From Acidobacteriota bacterium (GTDB lineage Bacteria > Pseudomonadota > Gammaproteobacteria > Burkholderiales > Burkholderiaceae_C): a stretch of 64,000 bases of DNA. Where the stretch lies: positions 1,151 through 65,150 of the forward strand of contig JBLNAI010000011.1 in the NCBI GenBank assembly GCA_050259275.1, written 5' to 3'. Below the pieces are notes generated by a model. It saw only the letters and a program-made list of their open reading frames with translations, ran no database searches and was not told the origin of the DNA. Shown here one piece after another: positions 1 through 4,202 of the stretch (positions are counted from its first letter, which is position 1; every line of letters begins with the position of its first letter). Both the position numbers and the translations under genes were made by a program.

Positions 1-786
1 GAACCAGCCTGACGCCGTGGGGGCCGCGCCCGCGATCACGCCTGCGCAATGCGTGCCGTGCCCTTTGTCGTCGCGCCACCATTCGAAGGGGTCTTGGCCG
101 TCGAGGGTGTTGAATCCTCCGGCCACGGCCACGCTGCCGCCACATGGGTCGACGCCTGAGTCGATCACGGCAACCTTGACACCGGCCCCCGCCATGCCGG
201 TGCGAGCCCAGAACTCGCTGGTGCCCAGCAGGGCGTGAATCCAGGCGCTGTCACGGCCCGGCATCAACGGCCGCAAGGTCACGGCGAGTTGATCGATCCA
301 CTGATCTTGCTCGGGGCGTGTCAGCACACGCGACCAATGGGTGTGTCGCGGTGAAATGATCACCTGCTCCAATGCCTGCTCGCGAACCACGATGCGGGCC
401 AGGCCGTCCGCATCGGTGTGGGCCCTGTAGCCGACCCCTGCAGCCAGCGCGTAGATCGAACAATCGGCCACCCCCTGGCCGTTTGAATCGACGACCTGAA
501 TGCACACTTCACGCGTCGCGGCTTGCGCGTCGACCATGGGTGGCAGCCCGGGCATGCCCAGCAGGCACAGAGGCTGGTCCTCTTCGATCGGGACATCGGT
601 GTGCCGATGGCGAAAGGCCTCGATCTCGTCGTCGGCCATTTCAACCACCTGGCGACGGGGGCTTGATCGATGGGGTGAGGCAAGCGCTGCCGGCCGCCTG
701 GGCGCAAAGTCTCGCAGCACTTTCAACGGTGCCTGGCCCGGTGGAGCCGCAGCCGGCTGGCTGATCAGGACCCGGCGGGTGGTCAT
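1..786 (-). CDS. S8 (subtilisin-like) serine peptidase, 3' part outside the window; no signal peptide
   Basis: Missing from the ORF track because it is edge-truncated. Manual translation from the ATG at 786 gives MTTRRVLISQP...GAGVKVAVIDSGVD...DDKGHGTHCAGVIAG, open to base 1. Catalytic Asp (VAVIDSG) and His (HGTHCAG) motifs are present; the Ser motif is off-window. Confidence 0.9.
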   Translation of the reverse strand, partial: MTTRRVLISQPAAAPPGQAPLKVLRDFAPRRPAALASPHRSSPRRQVVEMADDEIEAFRHRHTDVPIEEDQPLCLLGMPGLPPMVDAQAATREVCIQVVDSNGQGVADCSIYALAAGVGYRAHTDADGLARIVVREQALEQVIISPRHTHWSRVLTRPEQDQWIDQLAVTLRPLMPGRDSAWIHALLGTSEFWARTGMAGAGVKVAVIDSGVDPCGGSVAVAGGFNTLDGQDPFEWWRDDKGHGTHCAGVIAGAAPTASGWF

Positions 787-806
787 GGCTGTGGCACCCC
801 GCCCTG

Positions 807-1604
807 TCAACCGTATTGCACGCCCAGCGCCTGCAGGCGTTGTATGAGGGCGCTGTCTGGTATCGAGGCTTCAGCGGGGCCGATGAACAGGGTGCTGGCA
901 GCTGACAGATCGATGTGGTGCAGGTAACCCAGGGCCACGGGTGTCAGGCGCGGCTTGCAGCCAAAGTGCACCGCGGCCTCGTACACGATGGCCTGGTGAC
1001 CCAAGGGATAGCGGGTGCCCAGCTTCTCGATCAGGAAGGGCATCAGCGGCGTCGGATACCGGCCCTCTGATCGGTAGTGCCCATTGCCCAGGATGCCGAT
1101 CTGCCACAGCACCAGCGCGCTGGCTGGGTCCATGGCCCGGTTGTTGAAGAGAAAGTCGGTCGCCTCATAAGACAGGCAGCCGGTGGCGGCCGGGTCGATG
1201 CAGATATCGGCAAACAGACAGTCTTCGGCAGACACACCGGGCAGCATCACCGCGCTGTAGCCTTCGGCCCGAGCCCGTTTGATCGACTCATGCGAGGGAT
1301 AGACGAACACGCCGGGGTGACCGTAGAACACCGCACAGACGCGTTCGCCAGCGCGCACGCAGGCCAGCACGCGTTCGACCATGGCCTCGTAGGTGGCCAG
1401 TCGGTCCTGGCCCTCGCCATACAGAACCTGCAGCGACTCGGCGGTGTCGTTCAGGTCGTGGATGGCACGCTCCGCCACCGGATCGCCGACCACGTACAGC
1501 ACCCGATCGGCTGCGCGGATCCAGGCGATCGACTCGGTGGTCATCTGCCCGACCGTCCGCAGACCGGTGCCCACCACCACCAATTGACCCTTGTTGGCGC
1601 TCAT
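807..1604 (-). CDS. Borosin-type peptide backbone alpha-N-methyltransferase (split borosin NMT, SonM/OphMA-like; TP_methylase fold)
   Basis: Motifs GQLVVVGTG, LYGEGQDRLATYEAMV, FYGHPGVF, LPGVSAEDCLFAD, SYEATDF, LWQIG and IVYEAA. Y62/R68/Y72/Y94 match the spacing of OphMA Y66/R72/Y76/Y98. Confidence 0.9.
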   Translation of the reverse strand: MSANKGQLVVVGTGLRTVGQMTTESIAWIRAADRVLYVVGDPVAERAIHDLNDTAESLQVLYGEGQDRLATYEAMVERVLACVRAGERVCAVFYGHPGVFVYPSHESIKRARAEGYSAVMLPGVSAEDCLFADICIDPAATGCLSYEATDFLFNNRAMDPASALVLWQIGILGNGHYRSEGRYPTPLMPFLIEKLGTRYPLGHQAIVYEAAVHFGCKPRLTPVALGYLHHIDLSAASTLFIGPAEASIPDSALIQRLQALGVQYG

Positions 1605-1873
1605 GGCGAGACTCCCTTCATCATGGCCTGCTCGATGGCCGCCGCTTCGCGAGAGGTCAGGGCTGCGATGTCCTCTTCCGACAAACCCTCTTGTGCAAAA
1701 AAGCCCATCGGATCCTTGATCAGTTGATACAGCAAATCGGTGTCCACACTGACGCGCGCAAGAAAGCGAGTGAGCGAGGCGGCTTCCTGCACCGAGGGCA
1801 CGGCGCTGGTGGCTGCCTGTGGGCGGGTGGCGGCGCTCCCGGCTTGATCAGGGGATGAGTCGTCTGAGGCCAT
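1601..1873 (-). CDS. Possible separately translated in-frame 90-aa BBD-like protein (internal start within the PRMT ORF)
   Basis: AAGGAG lies 8 nt upstream of an in-frame ATG (aaggagacttcgccATGgcc), giving MASDDSS...AMMKGVSP. Confidence 0.45.
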   Translation of the reverse strand: MASDDSSPDQAGSAATRPQAATSAVPSVQEAASLTRFLARVSVDTDLLYQLIKDPMGFFAQEGLSEEDIAALTSREAAAIEQAMMKGVSP

Positions 1874-2863
1874 GGCGAAGTCTCCTTGGAGGGTCGAAGA
1901 TCGGGGTGCTGGCTGGGGTGCCATGCCGGGTCCGACCCGGGTGTCGTGGGATTGCCAGGGGCCCTCGTCGACGCTGACCGCCCAGGCCAGATCGCTGAGC
2001 CCAGGTTCGCGGGGCAGGCATGCCACCCGTGCATGCAGGTGTGATGAGGCAGGCAGCGTCAGGGTGCTTCGCAAGGGCAAGGTGAGCTGGCCCCAGTGGG
2101 TCTCTGGGTCCCAGGGTGCGTTGCGCAAGGTCACCGAAGGCGACAGCTCGGCCTCGAACCAGGCAACCAGCGCATTGGCACGGCCATCGCGCTCGATCTG
2201 AAAGTCCATGTCGGCCTCGAAGGGCGCCAGGGCGCAAGTCAGATCGTCGGTGCGGGTGTCGGTGGTCCACATCAGCTGTGGTGCGCTGATCAGGTCTTGT
2301 TCTCGAACCTGATAGCGTCGGCACAGCAGATCGTGTACCGATGCCTCGCTCAAGCCCGCCAGGTCCAGGCCCAGCCGGTTGTCGCGCAGGTAATCCAGGT
2401 CGCACTGGGTGGCCAGATGAGCGGGCGCGGCCCAGGCCTTGACCACTGAAGGAACCATGATGCCGCCGGGTTTGAGCCAGCGGTCCCGGGCGAGCAGGAC
2501 CGGGTAGAGCAGGTTTTCGTCGACCCCGATCGTGCCCAGCCACTCCGACACGATCAGGTCCACTTGCTCGGGCAAGCGGACGTGCTGCATGTCCGCTTCG
2601 ATCACCTGCACGACATGCCCGACACCATTGCGCTGAGTCAGCTCTCTCGCCAGACGGGCTACGGGCGTGCGCTCCACCGCGTACACCCGCGTCGCGCCCG
2701 CCTTGGCGGCCAACAGACTCAGCACACCGCTGCCGGCGCCCACATCGAGCACCACGCAACCCGGTTGTACCCATTCACGCAGCGCCGCCTCAAAGGCCTG
2801 CATGCGCGGCCCGTCGCGCAGCATCCAGCGGTGCACATCCAAAGTCTCGTAGGGCAATGTCAT
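1601..2863 (-). CDS. Protein arginine methyltransferase (PRMT)-like enzyme with a C-terminal borosin-binding-domain-like module
   Basis: Motifs HRWMLRD, VLDVGAGSG (SAM motif I), VYAVE, the double-E loop DLIVSEWLGTIGVDE, RDRWLKPGG and the THW loop PETHWGQ. The C-terminus LTRFL..DTDLL..DP..GLSEEDIAAL resembles a BBD/LigA helical bundle. ATG at 2863 has AGAAGG upstream; the stop overlaps the NMT start (ATGA). Confidence 0.8.
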   Translation of the reverse strand: MTLPYETLDVHRWMLRDGPRMQAFEAALREWVQPGCVVLDVGAGSGVLSLLAAKAGATRVYAVERTPVARLARELTQRNGVGHVVQVIEADMQHVRLPEQVDLIVSEWLGTIGVDENLLYPVLLARDRWLKPGGIMVPSVVKAWAAPAHLATQCDLDYLRDNRLGLDLAGLSEASVHDLLCRRYQVREQDLISAPQLMWTTDTRTDDLTCALAPFEADMDFQIERDGRANALVAWFEAELSPSVTLRNAPWDPETHWGQLTLPLRSTLTLPASSHLHARVACLPREPGLSDLAWAVSVDEGPWQSHDTRVGPGMAPQPAPRSSTLQGDFAMASDDSSPDQAGSAATRPQAATSAVPSVQEAASLTRFLARVSVDTDLLYQLIKDPMGFFAQEGLSEEDIAALTSREAAAIEQAMMKGVSP

Positions 2864-2886: not shown

Positions 2887-3561
2887 TCAATAGAACAGTG
2901 GGGGCCTGATCAGCGGTGGGCGAACCAGCAGGGGCGGGCGCACCAGCAAAGGGGGGCGCACCAACAGCGGTGGGCGGATCAAGGGCGGCCGGATCAGCGG
3001 GGGCCTGACCAGCAGCGGCGGCCGGATCAACGGTGGGCGCACCAGCAGAGGTGGGCGGATCAAGGGAGGGCGCACCAACAGAGGCGGACGAATCAGCGGG
3101 GGGCGCACCAGCAAGGGCGGGCGAATCAACGGAGGACGCACCAGCAGCGGCGGCCGGATCAGCGGTGGCCGAATCAGTGGGGGCGGTGGCGGGACGGGGT
3201 TGGGGTAGCCGCCGAAGCTGTCGTCATAGCTGCTGTAGTAGCCGCTACCGTAGCCGTAGGGGTCGCTCCAGCCGGCATAGGGGTCCTGTGCCTGACCGTA
3301 GGGGTCGGCATAGCCGCTGTAATCGGCGCCATATCCGGCACCCCAGTCGGCTTCCTGGCCCCCTTGGCCACCTTGGCCATAGGGGTCGCCACCGCCACTG
3401 TAGTCATAGCCGGCCTGCGCGTAAGGATCGGCGCCATAGGGGTCGGCATAGGCAGCATAGGGGTCGCTGTACTGCGATGCGTCATAGCCTTCGTAACCCG
3501 TGGGAGCGGCGTTGTAGGGGTCGCTGTACGGGTCGTAGCCATAGGGGTCGTAGTGAGACAT
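2887..3561 (-). CDS. Repetitive 224-aa putative RiPP precursor/substrate (acidic DPY block plus PPLIR/PPLLVR repeats)
   Basis: SD GAAAGGA lies 7 nt upstream of the ATG at 3561 (MSHYDPY). It is the first gene of the operon, and the repeats use varied synonymous codons. An upstream ATG at 3693 lacks a clear SD. Confidence 0.8.
   Translation of the reverse strand: MSHYDPYGYDPYSDPYNAAPTGYEGYDASQYSDPYAAYADPYGADPYAQAGYDYSGGGDPYGQGGQGGQEADWGAGYGADYSGYADPYGQAQDPYAGWSDPYGYGSGYYSSYDDSFGGYPNPVPPPPPLIRPPLIRPPLLVRPPLIRPPLLVRPPLIRPPLLVRPPLIRPPLLVRPPLIRPPLLVRPPLIRPPLIRPPLLVRPPLLVRPPLLVRPPLIRPPLFY
2890..3192 (-). repeat. Coding tandem repeat: 9x PPLIR and 8x PPLLVR, ending PPLFY
   Basis: Counted directly from the translation. 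The 15- and 18-bp units differ at third codon positions. Confidence 0.95.
3193..3561 (-). repeat. Low-complexity coding block with 10 DPY motifs (26 Tyr, 16 Asp, 2 Glu, no Lys/Arg in 123 aa)
   Basis: Counted directly from the translation. Confidence 0.9.
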
Positions 3562-3887
3562 GTCCATATCCTTTCGTGCACCATGGGTTGGGGGCGTCCT
3601 TTGGTCACGACGGGCGGATTCACGCTGACTTGGGCCGGGCCCTGAGCCTGCGCCCGGGTCCTTGGCCTTCTTCCTGGATTTCGATGTCGTCATGAGGCAC
3701 AGTCCAGATTGCGGAGAATCTGCCGGCCTGCAACATTCCTGACTGGCTACTACCCGTTGCAGTGTCGTCCGGACGATGATGCGGCGCGAATTCCGCCATC
3801 CGCAATCCCTAGCTTGTTGGCGGTTCTGTCATCCGTTTGACGCGCTGTCGCGTTGTAGGTCTGTGTCCCCTACCTGGCAGCAGGCTC

Positions 3888-4202
3888 ATGAACCGCCATA
3901 CCGAACAACAGTTGTTGAATTTCTGCGTCGCTCAACACGGTCGCTTCAATCCCGAAGCGTGGCAGAACCTCGAAGGGGTGGCCCCCGAGCAAAAGGCGTG
4001 CGCGATGCTGCTGCTGGCCAACGCCCGCTGGTACGGTCGGCTGTCCGAGTTGCGCGATCTGATCAGCCAATCACTGCCCAATCAGGGCGGCAATCCGGCC
4101 AGCCGGCTGAGCGAGTTGTCAGCGCGTGCTGGCTTCAATGGCGCGCGGTTCGTTAAACGTTTGCAAAACCTGTTGTGGCTAAGCACCGAGCCCAAGCGTT
4201 GA
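3888..4202 (+). CDS. Hypothetical protein (104 aa), divergent from the methyltransferase operon
   Basis: ATG at 3888 (MNRHTEQQLLNF...) fills the gap with protein-like composition; no family recognised. Confidence 0.6.
   Translation: MNRHTEQQLLNFCVAQHGRFNPEAWQNLEGVAPEQKACAMLLLANARWYGRLSELRDLISQSLPNQGGNPASRLSELSARAGFNGARFVKRLQNLLWLSTEPKR

What the first reader, a model, noticed from the sequence alone, without database searches (positions are those of the whole stretch)
3193..3561. Acidic Tyr-rich block almost exactly charge-balances the Arg repeats; FUS-like diblock architecture
SEEN: the 123-aa N-half has 18 acidic residues (16 D, 2 E), 26 Tyr, 10 DPY motifs, SYG/GYG/GQGG-like segments and no Lys/Arg. 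The 101-aa C-half has 17 Arg and no acidic residue. INFERENCE A: the acidic half is an anionic pro-piece that masks a toxic cationic product until the subtilase cuts, or a repeated enzyme-recognition leader. INFERENCE B: a Tyr-sticker low-complexity domain plus an Arg block plus a PRMT parallels the FUS/FET logic, in which Tyr-Arg cation-pi condensation is tuned by Arg methylation. The protein might form a methylation-regulated bacterial condensate or coacervate material.
Basis: partly seen in the sequence, partly recalled or inferred. Interest (0 to 1): 0.65.

Follow-up and report, generated by a model that had tools for sequence, protein, structure and literature searches.

The report
Charge-matched acidic propiece on Arg-repeat protein
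The acidic, tyrosine-rich front half of this bacterial repeat protein carries almost exactly as many negative charges as its arginine-repeat back half carries positive ones, and most relatives keep this match over 11 to 30 arginines. This suggests a built-in neutralising domain for a methylated, peptide-like product.

Summary
ORF 2890-3561(-) encodes 224 aa. Its N-block has 123 aa with 16 D, 2 E, 26 Y, 10 DPY and no K/R. Its C-block has 101 aa with 17 R and no D/E.

The gene is real: dN/dS is 0.03-0.12 against relatives. It leads an operon with a PRMT fused to a SonA-like borosin-binding domain (BBD), a borosin backbone N-methyltransferase (NMT) and a subtilisin-like S8 protease.

I recovered about 13 further lineages of the same precursor from metagenomes. 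All have the same two blocks. In 10 of 13 lineages the net charge of the two blocks is within +/-2, while Arg counts run from 11 to 30 (permutation p about 0.002). Close relatives gain Asp and Arg together. All six S8-encoding lineages with a complete precursor are balanced. The three outliers lack S8 and may be repeat mis-assemblies.

AlphaFold2 (AF2) finds no fold. FUS signature motifs are not enriched, and there are no RG/RGG sites.

Best reading (about 0.42): a disordered, charge-matched anionic propiece of a split-borosin-like precursor, removed by S8 after methylation. A methylation-tuned coacervate remains possible but untested.

The scan had noted this operon only on this same window.

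The parts
3193..3561 (-). N-block of the precursor. It is 123 aa, rich in Asp, Tyr, Gly, Ala and Pro, with 10 DPY motifs, net charge -18, and no K, R, L or I. It is predicted to be disordered.
   Evidence: composition and motif enrichment; pLDDT 36-49; dN/dS 0.09-0.12
2890..3192 (-). C-block of the precursor. It is 101 aa: PPPPP, then 9 PPLIR and 8 PPLLVR units, then PPLFY. Net charge is +17 and it has no acidic residues. It is the presumed methylation substrate or core. The stop codon is at 2887-2889.
   Evidence: dN/dS 0.03-0.04; extended, no secondary structure, pLDDT 55-73
3569..3574 (-). Shine-Dalgarno-like AAAGGA box, 7 nt upstream of the ATG at 3561. It is conserved in L018 and L019.
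3562..3887 (.). Intergenic region between the precursor and a divergent gene of about 100 aa. Its DNA is far more conserved than synonymous sites of the flanking genes. In this genome only, it holds a 62-nt insertion that puts ATG 3693 in frame with the precursor.
   Evidence: alignment with L018/L019; pS about 0.55-0.59 in the coding part; no Rfam family
1601..2863 (-). Type I PRMT-like methyltransferase. The double-E and THW loops are invariant in 33 relatives. Its C-terminus, about 1604-1790, is a SonA-like borosin-binding domain (BBD).
   Evidence: PRMT2/6/8/1, E 1e-33; C-terminal profile against SonA, E 1.3e-6
807..1604 (-). Borosin-type backbone alpha-N-methyltransferase (TP_methylase fold).
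   Evidence: (OphMA/dbOphMA E 3e-56, SonM E 1e-52)
1..810 (-). N-terminal part of a subtilisin-like S8 protease with no signal peptide. The full 496-aa frame is L001:470-1960(-) and runs beyond the window start.
   Evidence: (subtilisin BPN' E 7e-42)

Best explanation
The region encodes the N-terminal, non-core domain of a large precursor protein of a split-borosin-like modification system. It is an intrinsically disordered polyanion built from (Y/x)-D-P-Y units.

Its Asp count is kept evolutionarily matched, about 1:1, to the Arg count of the C-terminal PP(L)(I/LV)R repeat block. The unprocessed protein is therefore electroneutral (net -1).

My proposed sequence of events is as follows.
1. 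The N-block acts as an in-cis counter-ion that keeps the Pro/Arg/aliphatic polycation soluble and inert. Asp-Arg and Tyr-Arg/Pro contacts would mediate this.
2. The PRMT-BBD fusion docks the borosin N-methyltransferase through its BBD. Together the two enzymes methylate Arg side chains and backbone amides of the repeats.
3. Methylation weakens the Asp/Tyr-Arg contacts and makes the C-block resistant to proteases.
4. The co-encoded cytoplasmic, subtilisin-type S8 protease then degrades or removes the unmethylated, Tyr-rich N-block. This releases a hypermethylated polyproline-II-like polycation.

Shown here: the composition, the family-wide two-block architecture, the charge matching, the purifying selection, the enzyme identities and the co-occurrence. 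Inferred: masking, the order of events, the cleavage and the activity of the product.
For: The counts and the segregation of charge are confirmed.

The same two-block protein sits directly upstream of a PRMT-BBD and an NMT in every related cluster recovered. It is not found next to stand-alone bacterial PRMTs.

Acidic versus basic counts of the two blocks are:
- window 18/17
- L018 and L019 19/18
- L026 12/11
- L032 19/18
- L088 17/17
- L090 and L167 20/18
- L131 13/11
- L143 31/30
- L169 16/16
- L170 12/12
- L028 9/11

In the first 11 non-redundant lineages, 8 are within +/-2, with a permutation p of 0.002. Two lineages added later both have net charge 0.

Close relatives change together. The window has 18/17 and L018/L019 have 19/18. 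L094 differs from L028 by +2 Asp and +1 Arg.

Balanced members occur in both deep clades of the PRMT tree.

All six S8-encoding lineages with a complete precursor are balanced; only 2 of 5 S8-less lineages are (Fisher p 0.06).

The S8 protease is nearest to true subtilisins rather than kexins. From general knowledge, true subtilisins prefer aromatic or hydrophobic P1 residues. This fits digestion of a block with 26 Tyr.

The N-block contains no Arg and almost no aliphatic residues, so it offers no obvious site to either methyltransferase.

Both halves are under purifying selection. AF2 gives no fold, with pLDDT 36-49 for the N-block.

Large repeat precursors and the protease resistance conferred by backbone N-methylation are documented for split borosins (10.1101/2021.12.24.474128).
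Against: Three lineages are clearly unbalanced: L021 24/15, L023 22/13 and L025 10/23.

S8 is missing from six clusters that have enough flank to judge.

No exporter or immunity gene is conserved around the clusters. This is unusual for a toxic or secreted product.

The fraction of charged residues is only 0.16, so electrostatic masking would be modest. AF2 shows no contact between the N-block and the C-block.

The NMT might instead methylate the conserved tail of the PRMT-BBD. In SonA-type systems the BBD-bearing protein is the substrate (10.1101/2024.01.09.574750).

The statistics are not corrected for phylogeny. Repeat numbers in short-read assemblies may be wrong.
Confidence: 0.42

Rival explanations
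1. Self-coacervating material or condensate scaffold. The intact, net-neutral two-block polyampholyte is the functional product. It phase-separates through Asp-Arg, Tyr-Arg and Tyr-Pro contacts between chains, and Arg methylation by the obligate PRMT partner tunes the assembly.
For: Net charge is -2 to +2 in 10 of 13 lineages, with complete segregation of charges. Polymer-physics literature treats this as the regime of self-coacervation (titles retrieved; not read in depth).

The N-block is 21% Tyr and is predicted to be disordered. A PRMT is present in every cluster. No exporter is conserved, which is compatible with an intracellular role.
Against: A dedicated protease is present in both deep clades, which argues that the two blocks are separated. 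The fraction of charged residues is low at 0.16. FUS signature motifs are not enriched and there are no RG/RGG sites. A backbone N-methyltransferase has no obvious role in a condensate. No experimental data exist.
Confidence: 0.2
2. Recognition leader. The DPY units, or the conserved N-terminal M-S-x-YDPY-x-YDP motif, are docking sites that recruit or position the PRMT-BBD/NMT complex or the S8 protease along the repeats. On this view the Asp:Arg match is a by-product of one docking unit per core unit.
For: Y4, D5 and P6 are invariant and are the best-conserved part of the N-block. DPY is strongly enriched. RiPP logic places recognition elements N-terminal to the core. The number of Asp-bearing units tracks the number of Arg units.
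Against: Seven lineages carry a separate, conserved leader motif of about 30 aa upstream of the DPY block. That motif looks like the true recognition element, and the window clade lacks it.

The internal units of the N-block differ in register and sequence between lineages and keep only their composition. This is typical of composition-driven disordered regions rather than docking sites. PRMT active sites are acidic (general knowledge) and are unlikely to bind a polyanion.
Confidence: 0.2
3. The N-block is itself a second product or core, for example DPY-containing peptides released by S8. Alternatively it is a neutral spacer whose charge match is coincidental.
For: DPY motifs are repeated and under purifying selection. 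Multi-core precursors are known in borosins (10.1101/2021.12.24.474128). SamP releases an anionic, unmethylated peptide in Shewanella borosins (10.1101/2024.01.09.574750).
Against: No further modifying enzyme is conserved in the clusters. The repeat register is not conserved between lineages. The charge match recurs in independent lineages, which argues against coincidence.
Confidence: 0.08

Closest known systems
Split borosin RiPP precursors with large repeat proteins (types V-VIII, e.g. RceA, SliA) and the SonM/SonA system
   Same: It has an adjacent borosin alpha-N-methyltransferase (E 1e-52 to 1e-56 against SonM/OphMA) and a BBD in the cluster. The precursor is 200-500 aa, with a C-terminal array of short hydrophobic repeats and a long region of no assigned function (10.1101/2021.12.24.474128).
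   Different: The BBD is fused to a PRMT-type arginine methyltransferase, not to the precursor or the NMT. The repeats are Pro/Arg-rich. The non-core region is a charge-matched polyanion. An S8 protease takes the place of the A1 or prolyl-oligopeptidase proteases known for borosins. In two borosin surveys I found no mention of arginine or PRMT and, in the 2024 survey, no SAM-dependent methyltransferase partner.
Charge-neutralised propeptides of animal cationic antimicrobial peptides (alpha-defensin anionic propiece; cathelicidin precursors of Pro/Arg-rich Bac5 and Bac7)
   Same: An N-terminal anionic propiece balances the charge of a C-terminal cationic peptide and is removed by a serine protease (the terms 'anionic propiece' and 'charge-neutralized' were retrieved, e.g. 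PMC3308943). The C-block resembles the XPPY-type repeats of Bac5, whose PIRXP motifs are essential (abstract of PMC6973051).
   Different: There is no homology. This protein is bacterial and cytoplasmic, with no signal peptide. The propiece is a low-complexity Tyr/Asp repeat rather than a folded cathelin domain or a short propiece. Arg makes up 17% of the block rather than more than 25%. The product is presumably methylated. Antimicrobial activity is untested.
FUS/FET proteins (Tyr-rich SYGQ low-complexity domain plus RGG domains methylated by PRMT1)
   Same: A Tyr-rich, disordered block and an Arg-bearing block lie in one chain, together with a type I PRMT-like enzyme.
   Different: [G/S]Y[G/S] is not enriched, with 2 observed against 2.08 expected. 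The block has 18 acidic residues. Arg sits in a P-P-L-I-R-P context with no RG/RGG. There is no RNA-binding domain and no homology.

Membership tests
FUS/FET-like LC + RGG architecture | SYGQ-rich low-complexity domain with enriched [G/S]Y[G/S] motifs and few charges | tested here: not met
   [G/S]Y[G/S] occurs 2 times against a shuffle mean of 2.08. The block has 18 acidic residues, and its enriched motif is DPY.
FUS/FET-like LC + RGG architecture | Arg in RGG/RG motifs as the PRMT substrate | tested here: not met
   The C-block contains no Gly. Every Arg is flanked by I or V on one side and P on the other.
FUS/FET-like LC + RGG architecture | Phase separation tuned by Arg methylation | not testable with these tools
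   Only indirect data are available: net neutrality, blocky charge (SCD z = -19.7) and predicted disorder.
Split borosin RiPP system | Borosin-type alpha-N-methyltransferase encoded next to the precursor | tested here: met
   The protein encoded at 807-1604(-) matches OphMA/dbOphMA at E 3e-56 and SonM at E 1e-52. It is present in all related clusters.
Split borosin RiPP system | Borosin-binding domain on the precursor or on the NMT | tested here: inconclusive
   A BBD homologue exists (profile against SonA, E 1.3e-6). It is fused to the PRMT, not to the two-block protein or the NMT.
Split borosin RiPP system | Backbone alpha-N-methylation of the core | not testable with these tools
   This needs co-expression and mass spectrometry.
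Charge-neutralised antimicrobial propeptide | Anionic propiece whose charge matches the cationic C-terminal peptide across family members | tested here: met
   10 of 13 lineages are within +/-2 over 11-30 Arg. Three are outliers.
Charge-neutralised antimicrobial propeptide | Proteolytic removal of the propiece and antimicrobial activity of the product | not testable with these tools
   S8 is co-encoded in 9 of 15 clusters. Cleavage and activity are unknown.
Type I PRMT (the partner enzyme) | Rossmann SAM motifs, double-E loop, THW loop and PRMT beta-barrel | tested here: met
   E107, W108, G110, E116 and T255-H256-W257 are invariant in 33 relatives. Pfam reports PRMT_C and PRMT5. PDB PRMT2/6/8/1 match at E 1e-33.

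The most novel reading that the evidence does not exclude
The protein is a cis-encoded 'toxin-antitoxin-like' or switchable polyampholyte. It pairs a labile, protease-digestible polyanion (N-block) with a stable polycation (C-block) that methylation makes protease-proof, in strict 1:1 charge stoichiometry. Arg and backbone methylation loosen the Asp/Tyr-Arg clamp. The cytoplasmic subtilase then erases the anion, switching the cell-internal polycation on. Its action might be ribosome or nucleic-acid binding, or condensate formation. This would be a bacterial use of PRMT chemistry to control a charge-patterned disordered protein.
Probability: 0.15. Interest if true: 0.85.

Novelty: new variant of a known kind. 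Interest (0 to 1): 0.62.

Why it matters
If the reading holds, this would be a bacterial precursor family in which the size of an anionic, Tyr-rich pro-domain is kept matched to the number of Arg-bearing repeats. I found no earlier description of such a family.

It would show that charge stoichiometry itself is under selection in a disordered protein. It would give a tractable, four-gene system for asking what arginine methylation by a bacterial PRMT, together with backbone N-methylation, does to a Pro/Arg polycation.

It would also extend the borosin family to a PRMT-BBD architecture and an S8 protease. The product, a possibly fully N-substituted and methyl-arginine-rich polyproline rod, would be chemically unusual and of interest for peptide engineering.

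Tried and rejected
Searches that failed or were unavailable:
- A word-indexed homologue search with the precursor found only Pro-rich noise and did not even return the window's own protein.
- A profile search of 1.84 billion representatives with the family alignment returned repeat and low-complexity noise. None of the top 150 has the two-block architecture.
- A genome-contig scan with the single PRMT sequence found nothing. With the alignment it found mostly stand-alone PRMTs and only one true cluster, L032.
- Pfam, NCBIfam and PADLOC give no family for the precursor, only a sub-threshold Extensin_1 match.
- Rfam gives nothing for the conserved upstream region, and no promoter or terminator consensus was found.
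Repeat numbers in the outlier assemblies and expression therefore could not be checked.

Readings rejected:
- The longer 268-aa frame from ATG 3693 is created by a 62-nt insertion that relatives lack.
- The + strand ORFs across the region are excluded by the dN/dS values and the family conservation of the - strand frame.
- A folded Asp-Arg zipper is not supported: AF2 gives pTM 0.15 and no contacts.
- An S8 that cuts after Arg in the kexin manner is unlikely, because its nearest solved relatives are true subtilisins.

L027 was left out of the charge table because its start codon could not be fixed. L168 is only approximate because of a 34-residue assembly gap. L091 is partial.

Full report
**Observation.**
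- Residues encoded by 3193-3561 form a 123-aa block with 16 Asp, 2 Glu, 26 Tyr, 24 Gly and 10 DPY motifs, and with no Lys, Arg, Leu, Ile or Cys.
- Residues encoded by 2890-3192 form a 101-aa block made only of Pro (39), Leu (26), Arg (17), Ile (9), Val (8), one Phe and one Tyr. They are arranged as PPPPP, 9 PPLIR, 8 PPLLVR and PPLFY.
- The two blocks share only proline.
- DPY occurs 10 times against 0.36 expected from composition, with a maximum of 4 in 20,000 shuffles. Every Asp-Pro is followed by Tyr.
- Charge segregation is extreme: SCD is -7.06 against -0.62 +/- 0.33 for shuffles, z = -19.7. Charge is nonetheless dilute, with a fraction of charged residues of 0.16.

**The gene and its start.**
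- An AAAGGA box lies 7 nt upstream, and all leaderless relatives start M-S-(H/Y)-Y-D-P-Y.
- The longer frame from ATG 3693 exists only because this genome has a 62-nt insertion. L018 and L019 have a three-codon mini-ORF there.
- Against relatives with about 80% identity in the adjacent PRMT, synonymous sites are near saturation (dS about 1). dN/dS is 0.09-0.12 in the N-block and 0.03-0.04 in the C-block. Both halves are therefore coding and under purifying selection.

**Surroundings.** The gene heads a minus-strand operon of four genes.
- The next gene is a type I PRMT-like enzyme. Pfam reports PRMT_C and PRMT5, and PDB PRMT2/6/8/1 match at E 1e-33. The double-E and THW loops are invariant in 33 relatives.
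- The last roughly 60 residues of that enzyme match the borosin-binding domain of SonA (profile E 1.3e-6).
- The third gene is a borosin backbone N-methyltransferase, matching OphMA at E 3e-56 and SonM at E 1e-52.
- The fourth is a 496-aa S8 protease without a signal peptide. Its nearest solved relatives are true subtilisins.
- The operon lies 1.1 kb from a contig end.
- Neither the PRMT fusion nor the precursor was found in 36 other genomes of the same genus. It is therefore accessory.

**A family.** Sequence searches with the precursor itself fail because of its composition. Relatives of the PRMT-BBD fusion and a degenerate DNA pattern for RPPLIRPPL led to about 13 further lineages. These are L018, L019/20, L021/22, L023/24, L025, L026, L027, L028/94, L032, L088, L090/167, L131, L143, L168, L169 and L170, plus the partial L091.
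- In every case a protein of 170-500 aa lies immediately upstream of the PRMT-BBD and the NMT.
- All have the same two blocks. The first is a Tyr/Gly/Ala/Asp/Pro block. Family-wide it is 21.5% Tyr and 12.6% Asp, and K+R make up about 0.1% of its residues. The second is a Pro/Leu/Arg/Ile/Val block with 36% Pro, 16% Arg and 0.2% Glu.
- The internal repeat units of the N-block differ between lineages and keep only the (Y/H)DP(Y/N/S) core. This points to selection on composition.
- Seven lineages carry an additional conserved leader motif of about 30 aa before the DPY block. The window clade lacks it.
- Stand-alone bacterial PRMTs have no such neighbour.

**The charge test.** Net negative charge of the N-block against net positive charge of the C-block is:

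| Lineage | Acidic/basic |
|---|---|
| window | 18/17 |
| L018, L019 | 19/18 |
| L026 | 12/11 |
| L032 | 19/18 |
| L088 | 17/17 |
| L090/L167 | 20/18 |
| L131 | 13/11 |
| L143 | 31/30 |
| L169 | 16/16 |
| L170 | 12/12 |
| L028 | 9/11 |
| L094 | 11/12 |
| L021 (outlier) | 24/15 |
| L023 (outlier) | 22/13 |
| L025 (outlier) | 10/23 |

- L168 is 25 against 19 plus an assembly gap worth about 6 units.
- In the first 11 non-redundant lineages, 8 are within +/-2 against 3.0 expected when Arg counts are permuted. This gives p = 0.002, or 0.015 without L143. The two lineages added afterwards both have net charge 0.
- Balanced members occur in both deep clades of the PRMT tree.
- Close relatives change together. 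L018/L019 differ from the window by +1 acidic residue and +1 Arg. L094 differs from L028 by +2 Asp and +1 Arg.
- Caveats: the test is not corrected for phylogeny and the sample is small. Tandem repeats may be collapsed in short-read assemblies. The L022 and L091 contigs break inside the repeats and L168 has a gap there, so the three outliers may be real or may be artefacts.

**Link to the protease.** S8 is present in 9 clusters: window, L018, L019, L026, L167, L091, L143, L169 and L170. It is absent, despite enough flank to judge, in L021, L023, L025, L027, L028 and L032.
- All six S8-encoding lineages with a complete precursor are balanced.
- Only 2 of 5 S8-less lineages are balanced (Fisher p 0.06). 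This is suggestive only.
- No exporter or immunity gene is conserved in any context.

**Structure.** AlphaFold2 with the family alignment gives mean pLDDT 51 and pTM 0.15. The N-block scores 36-49. The C-block scores 55-73, is extended and has no secondary structure. This fits a disordered polyanion joined to a polyproline-II-like rod, with no sign of a folded zipper.

**Interpretation.** The conserved near-neutrality means that the anionic charge of the N-block is functionally tied to the cationic charge of the C-block. In the context of a borosin-like operon with a frequent protease, I favour a charge-matched propiece, with confidence about 0.42.
- It neutralises and solubilises the Pro/Arg/aliphatic core while the PRMT-BBD/NMT pair methylates the core.
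- It is then digested by the subtilisin-type S8. From general knowledge, such enzymes prefer aromatic or hydrophobic P1 residues.
- The N-block offers 26 Tyr and no methylation sites. The C-block would be protected by Pro and by N-methyl amides. The protease stability conferred by such methylation is documented in 10.1101/2021.12.24.474128.
- Arg methylation keeps the charge but should weaken Asp-Arg and Tyr-Arg contacts. This gives a plausible release step.

The rivals are a self-coacervating intact protein (0.20), a docking leader (0.20), and a second product or coincidence (0.08). There is also a further uncertainty: the NMT may act on the conserved tail of the PRMT-BBD, as in SonA-type systems where the BBD protein is the substrate (10.1101/2024.01.09.574750).

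**Comparison with known systems.**
- It works like a split borosin with a large repeat precursor. It departs in three ways: the BBD is fused to a PRMT, the core is Pro/Arg-rich, and the protease is an S8 (10.1101/2021.12.24.474128).
- Two borosin surveys mention a BBD-GNAT fusion. Neither mentions arginine or PRMT, and the 2024 survey names no SAM-dependent methyltransferase partner.
- The charge logic parallels the anionic propieces of defensins and the cathelicidin precursors of Bac5-type Pro/Arg peptides, without homology.
- FUS membership fails at the motif level. [G/S]Y[G/S] is not enriched, there are no RG/RGG sites and the block is Asp-rich.

I class this as a new variant of a known kind.

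Noticed in passing
window 3562-3887; L018:4980-5260; L019:4860-5140: The roughly 270-nt region between the precursor and a divergent gene of about 100 aa is about 90% identical across three genomes whose coding synonymous sites are near saturation. It holds a mini-ORF (ATG AAA GCG TGA) in L018 and L019, and a 62-nt insertion in the window. It is likely a shared regulatory region. No Rfam family matches it.
   Followed up: partly
L023:4154-4400, L028:4206-4410, L088:28-256, L131:83-275, L143:1867-2086, L169:2552-2783, L168: Seven lineages carry a conserved leader motif of about 30 aa (roughly E-R-H-h-h-Y-Q-h-N-x-x-T-x-Q ... E-x-L-D-P-A-T-G-E-R-K-E-h-x-M) directly before the DPY block. A Lys/Pro/Ser/Ala-rich stretch precedes it. 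The Met that ends the motif is the start codon of the leaderless forms, such as the window's.
   Followed up: partly
window 1604-1640 (-) and alignment A4: After the BBD, the PRMT fusion ends in a conserved tail: I-E-x-A-M-M-K-G-x-x-P in clade A and A-L-(Y/F) in clade B. This tail sits where SonA carries its methylated segment. It may be a substrate of the NMT.
   Followed up: no
(all family loci): The NMT is much more conserved than its partners, at 81-97% identity within clade A. The PRMT is 56-81% identical and S8 is 57-75% identical.
   Followed up: no
window 3888-4202 (+); L019:4571-4873; L018:4690-4992: A divergent gene of about 100 aa (M-N-R-H-T-E-Q-Q...) is conserved next to the precursor in the window clade. 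It has no Pfam, NCBIfam or PADLOC match.
   Followed up: partly
L001:3-644 (-); L019:9412-10080; L020:4875-5765: A multi-pass membrane protein of unknown family follows S8 in the window clade only. It has no Pfam match and is cut by the contig end in this genome.
   Followed up: partly
L024:4998-5906 vs L023:4154-5062: Two MAGs carry nearly identical precursors. They differ in one repeat, where PPLIR reads PPQIL, which loses one Arg. This is either natural variation or an assembly error inside the repeat array.
   Followed up: no
L028 and L094 C-blocks: One lineage has replaced most PPLxR units by P-I-W-(G/E)-P-V-I-R-Q units that contain Trp and, in two units, Glu. The core repeat is therefore evolvable while Arg periodicity is kept.
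   Followed up: no
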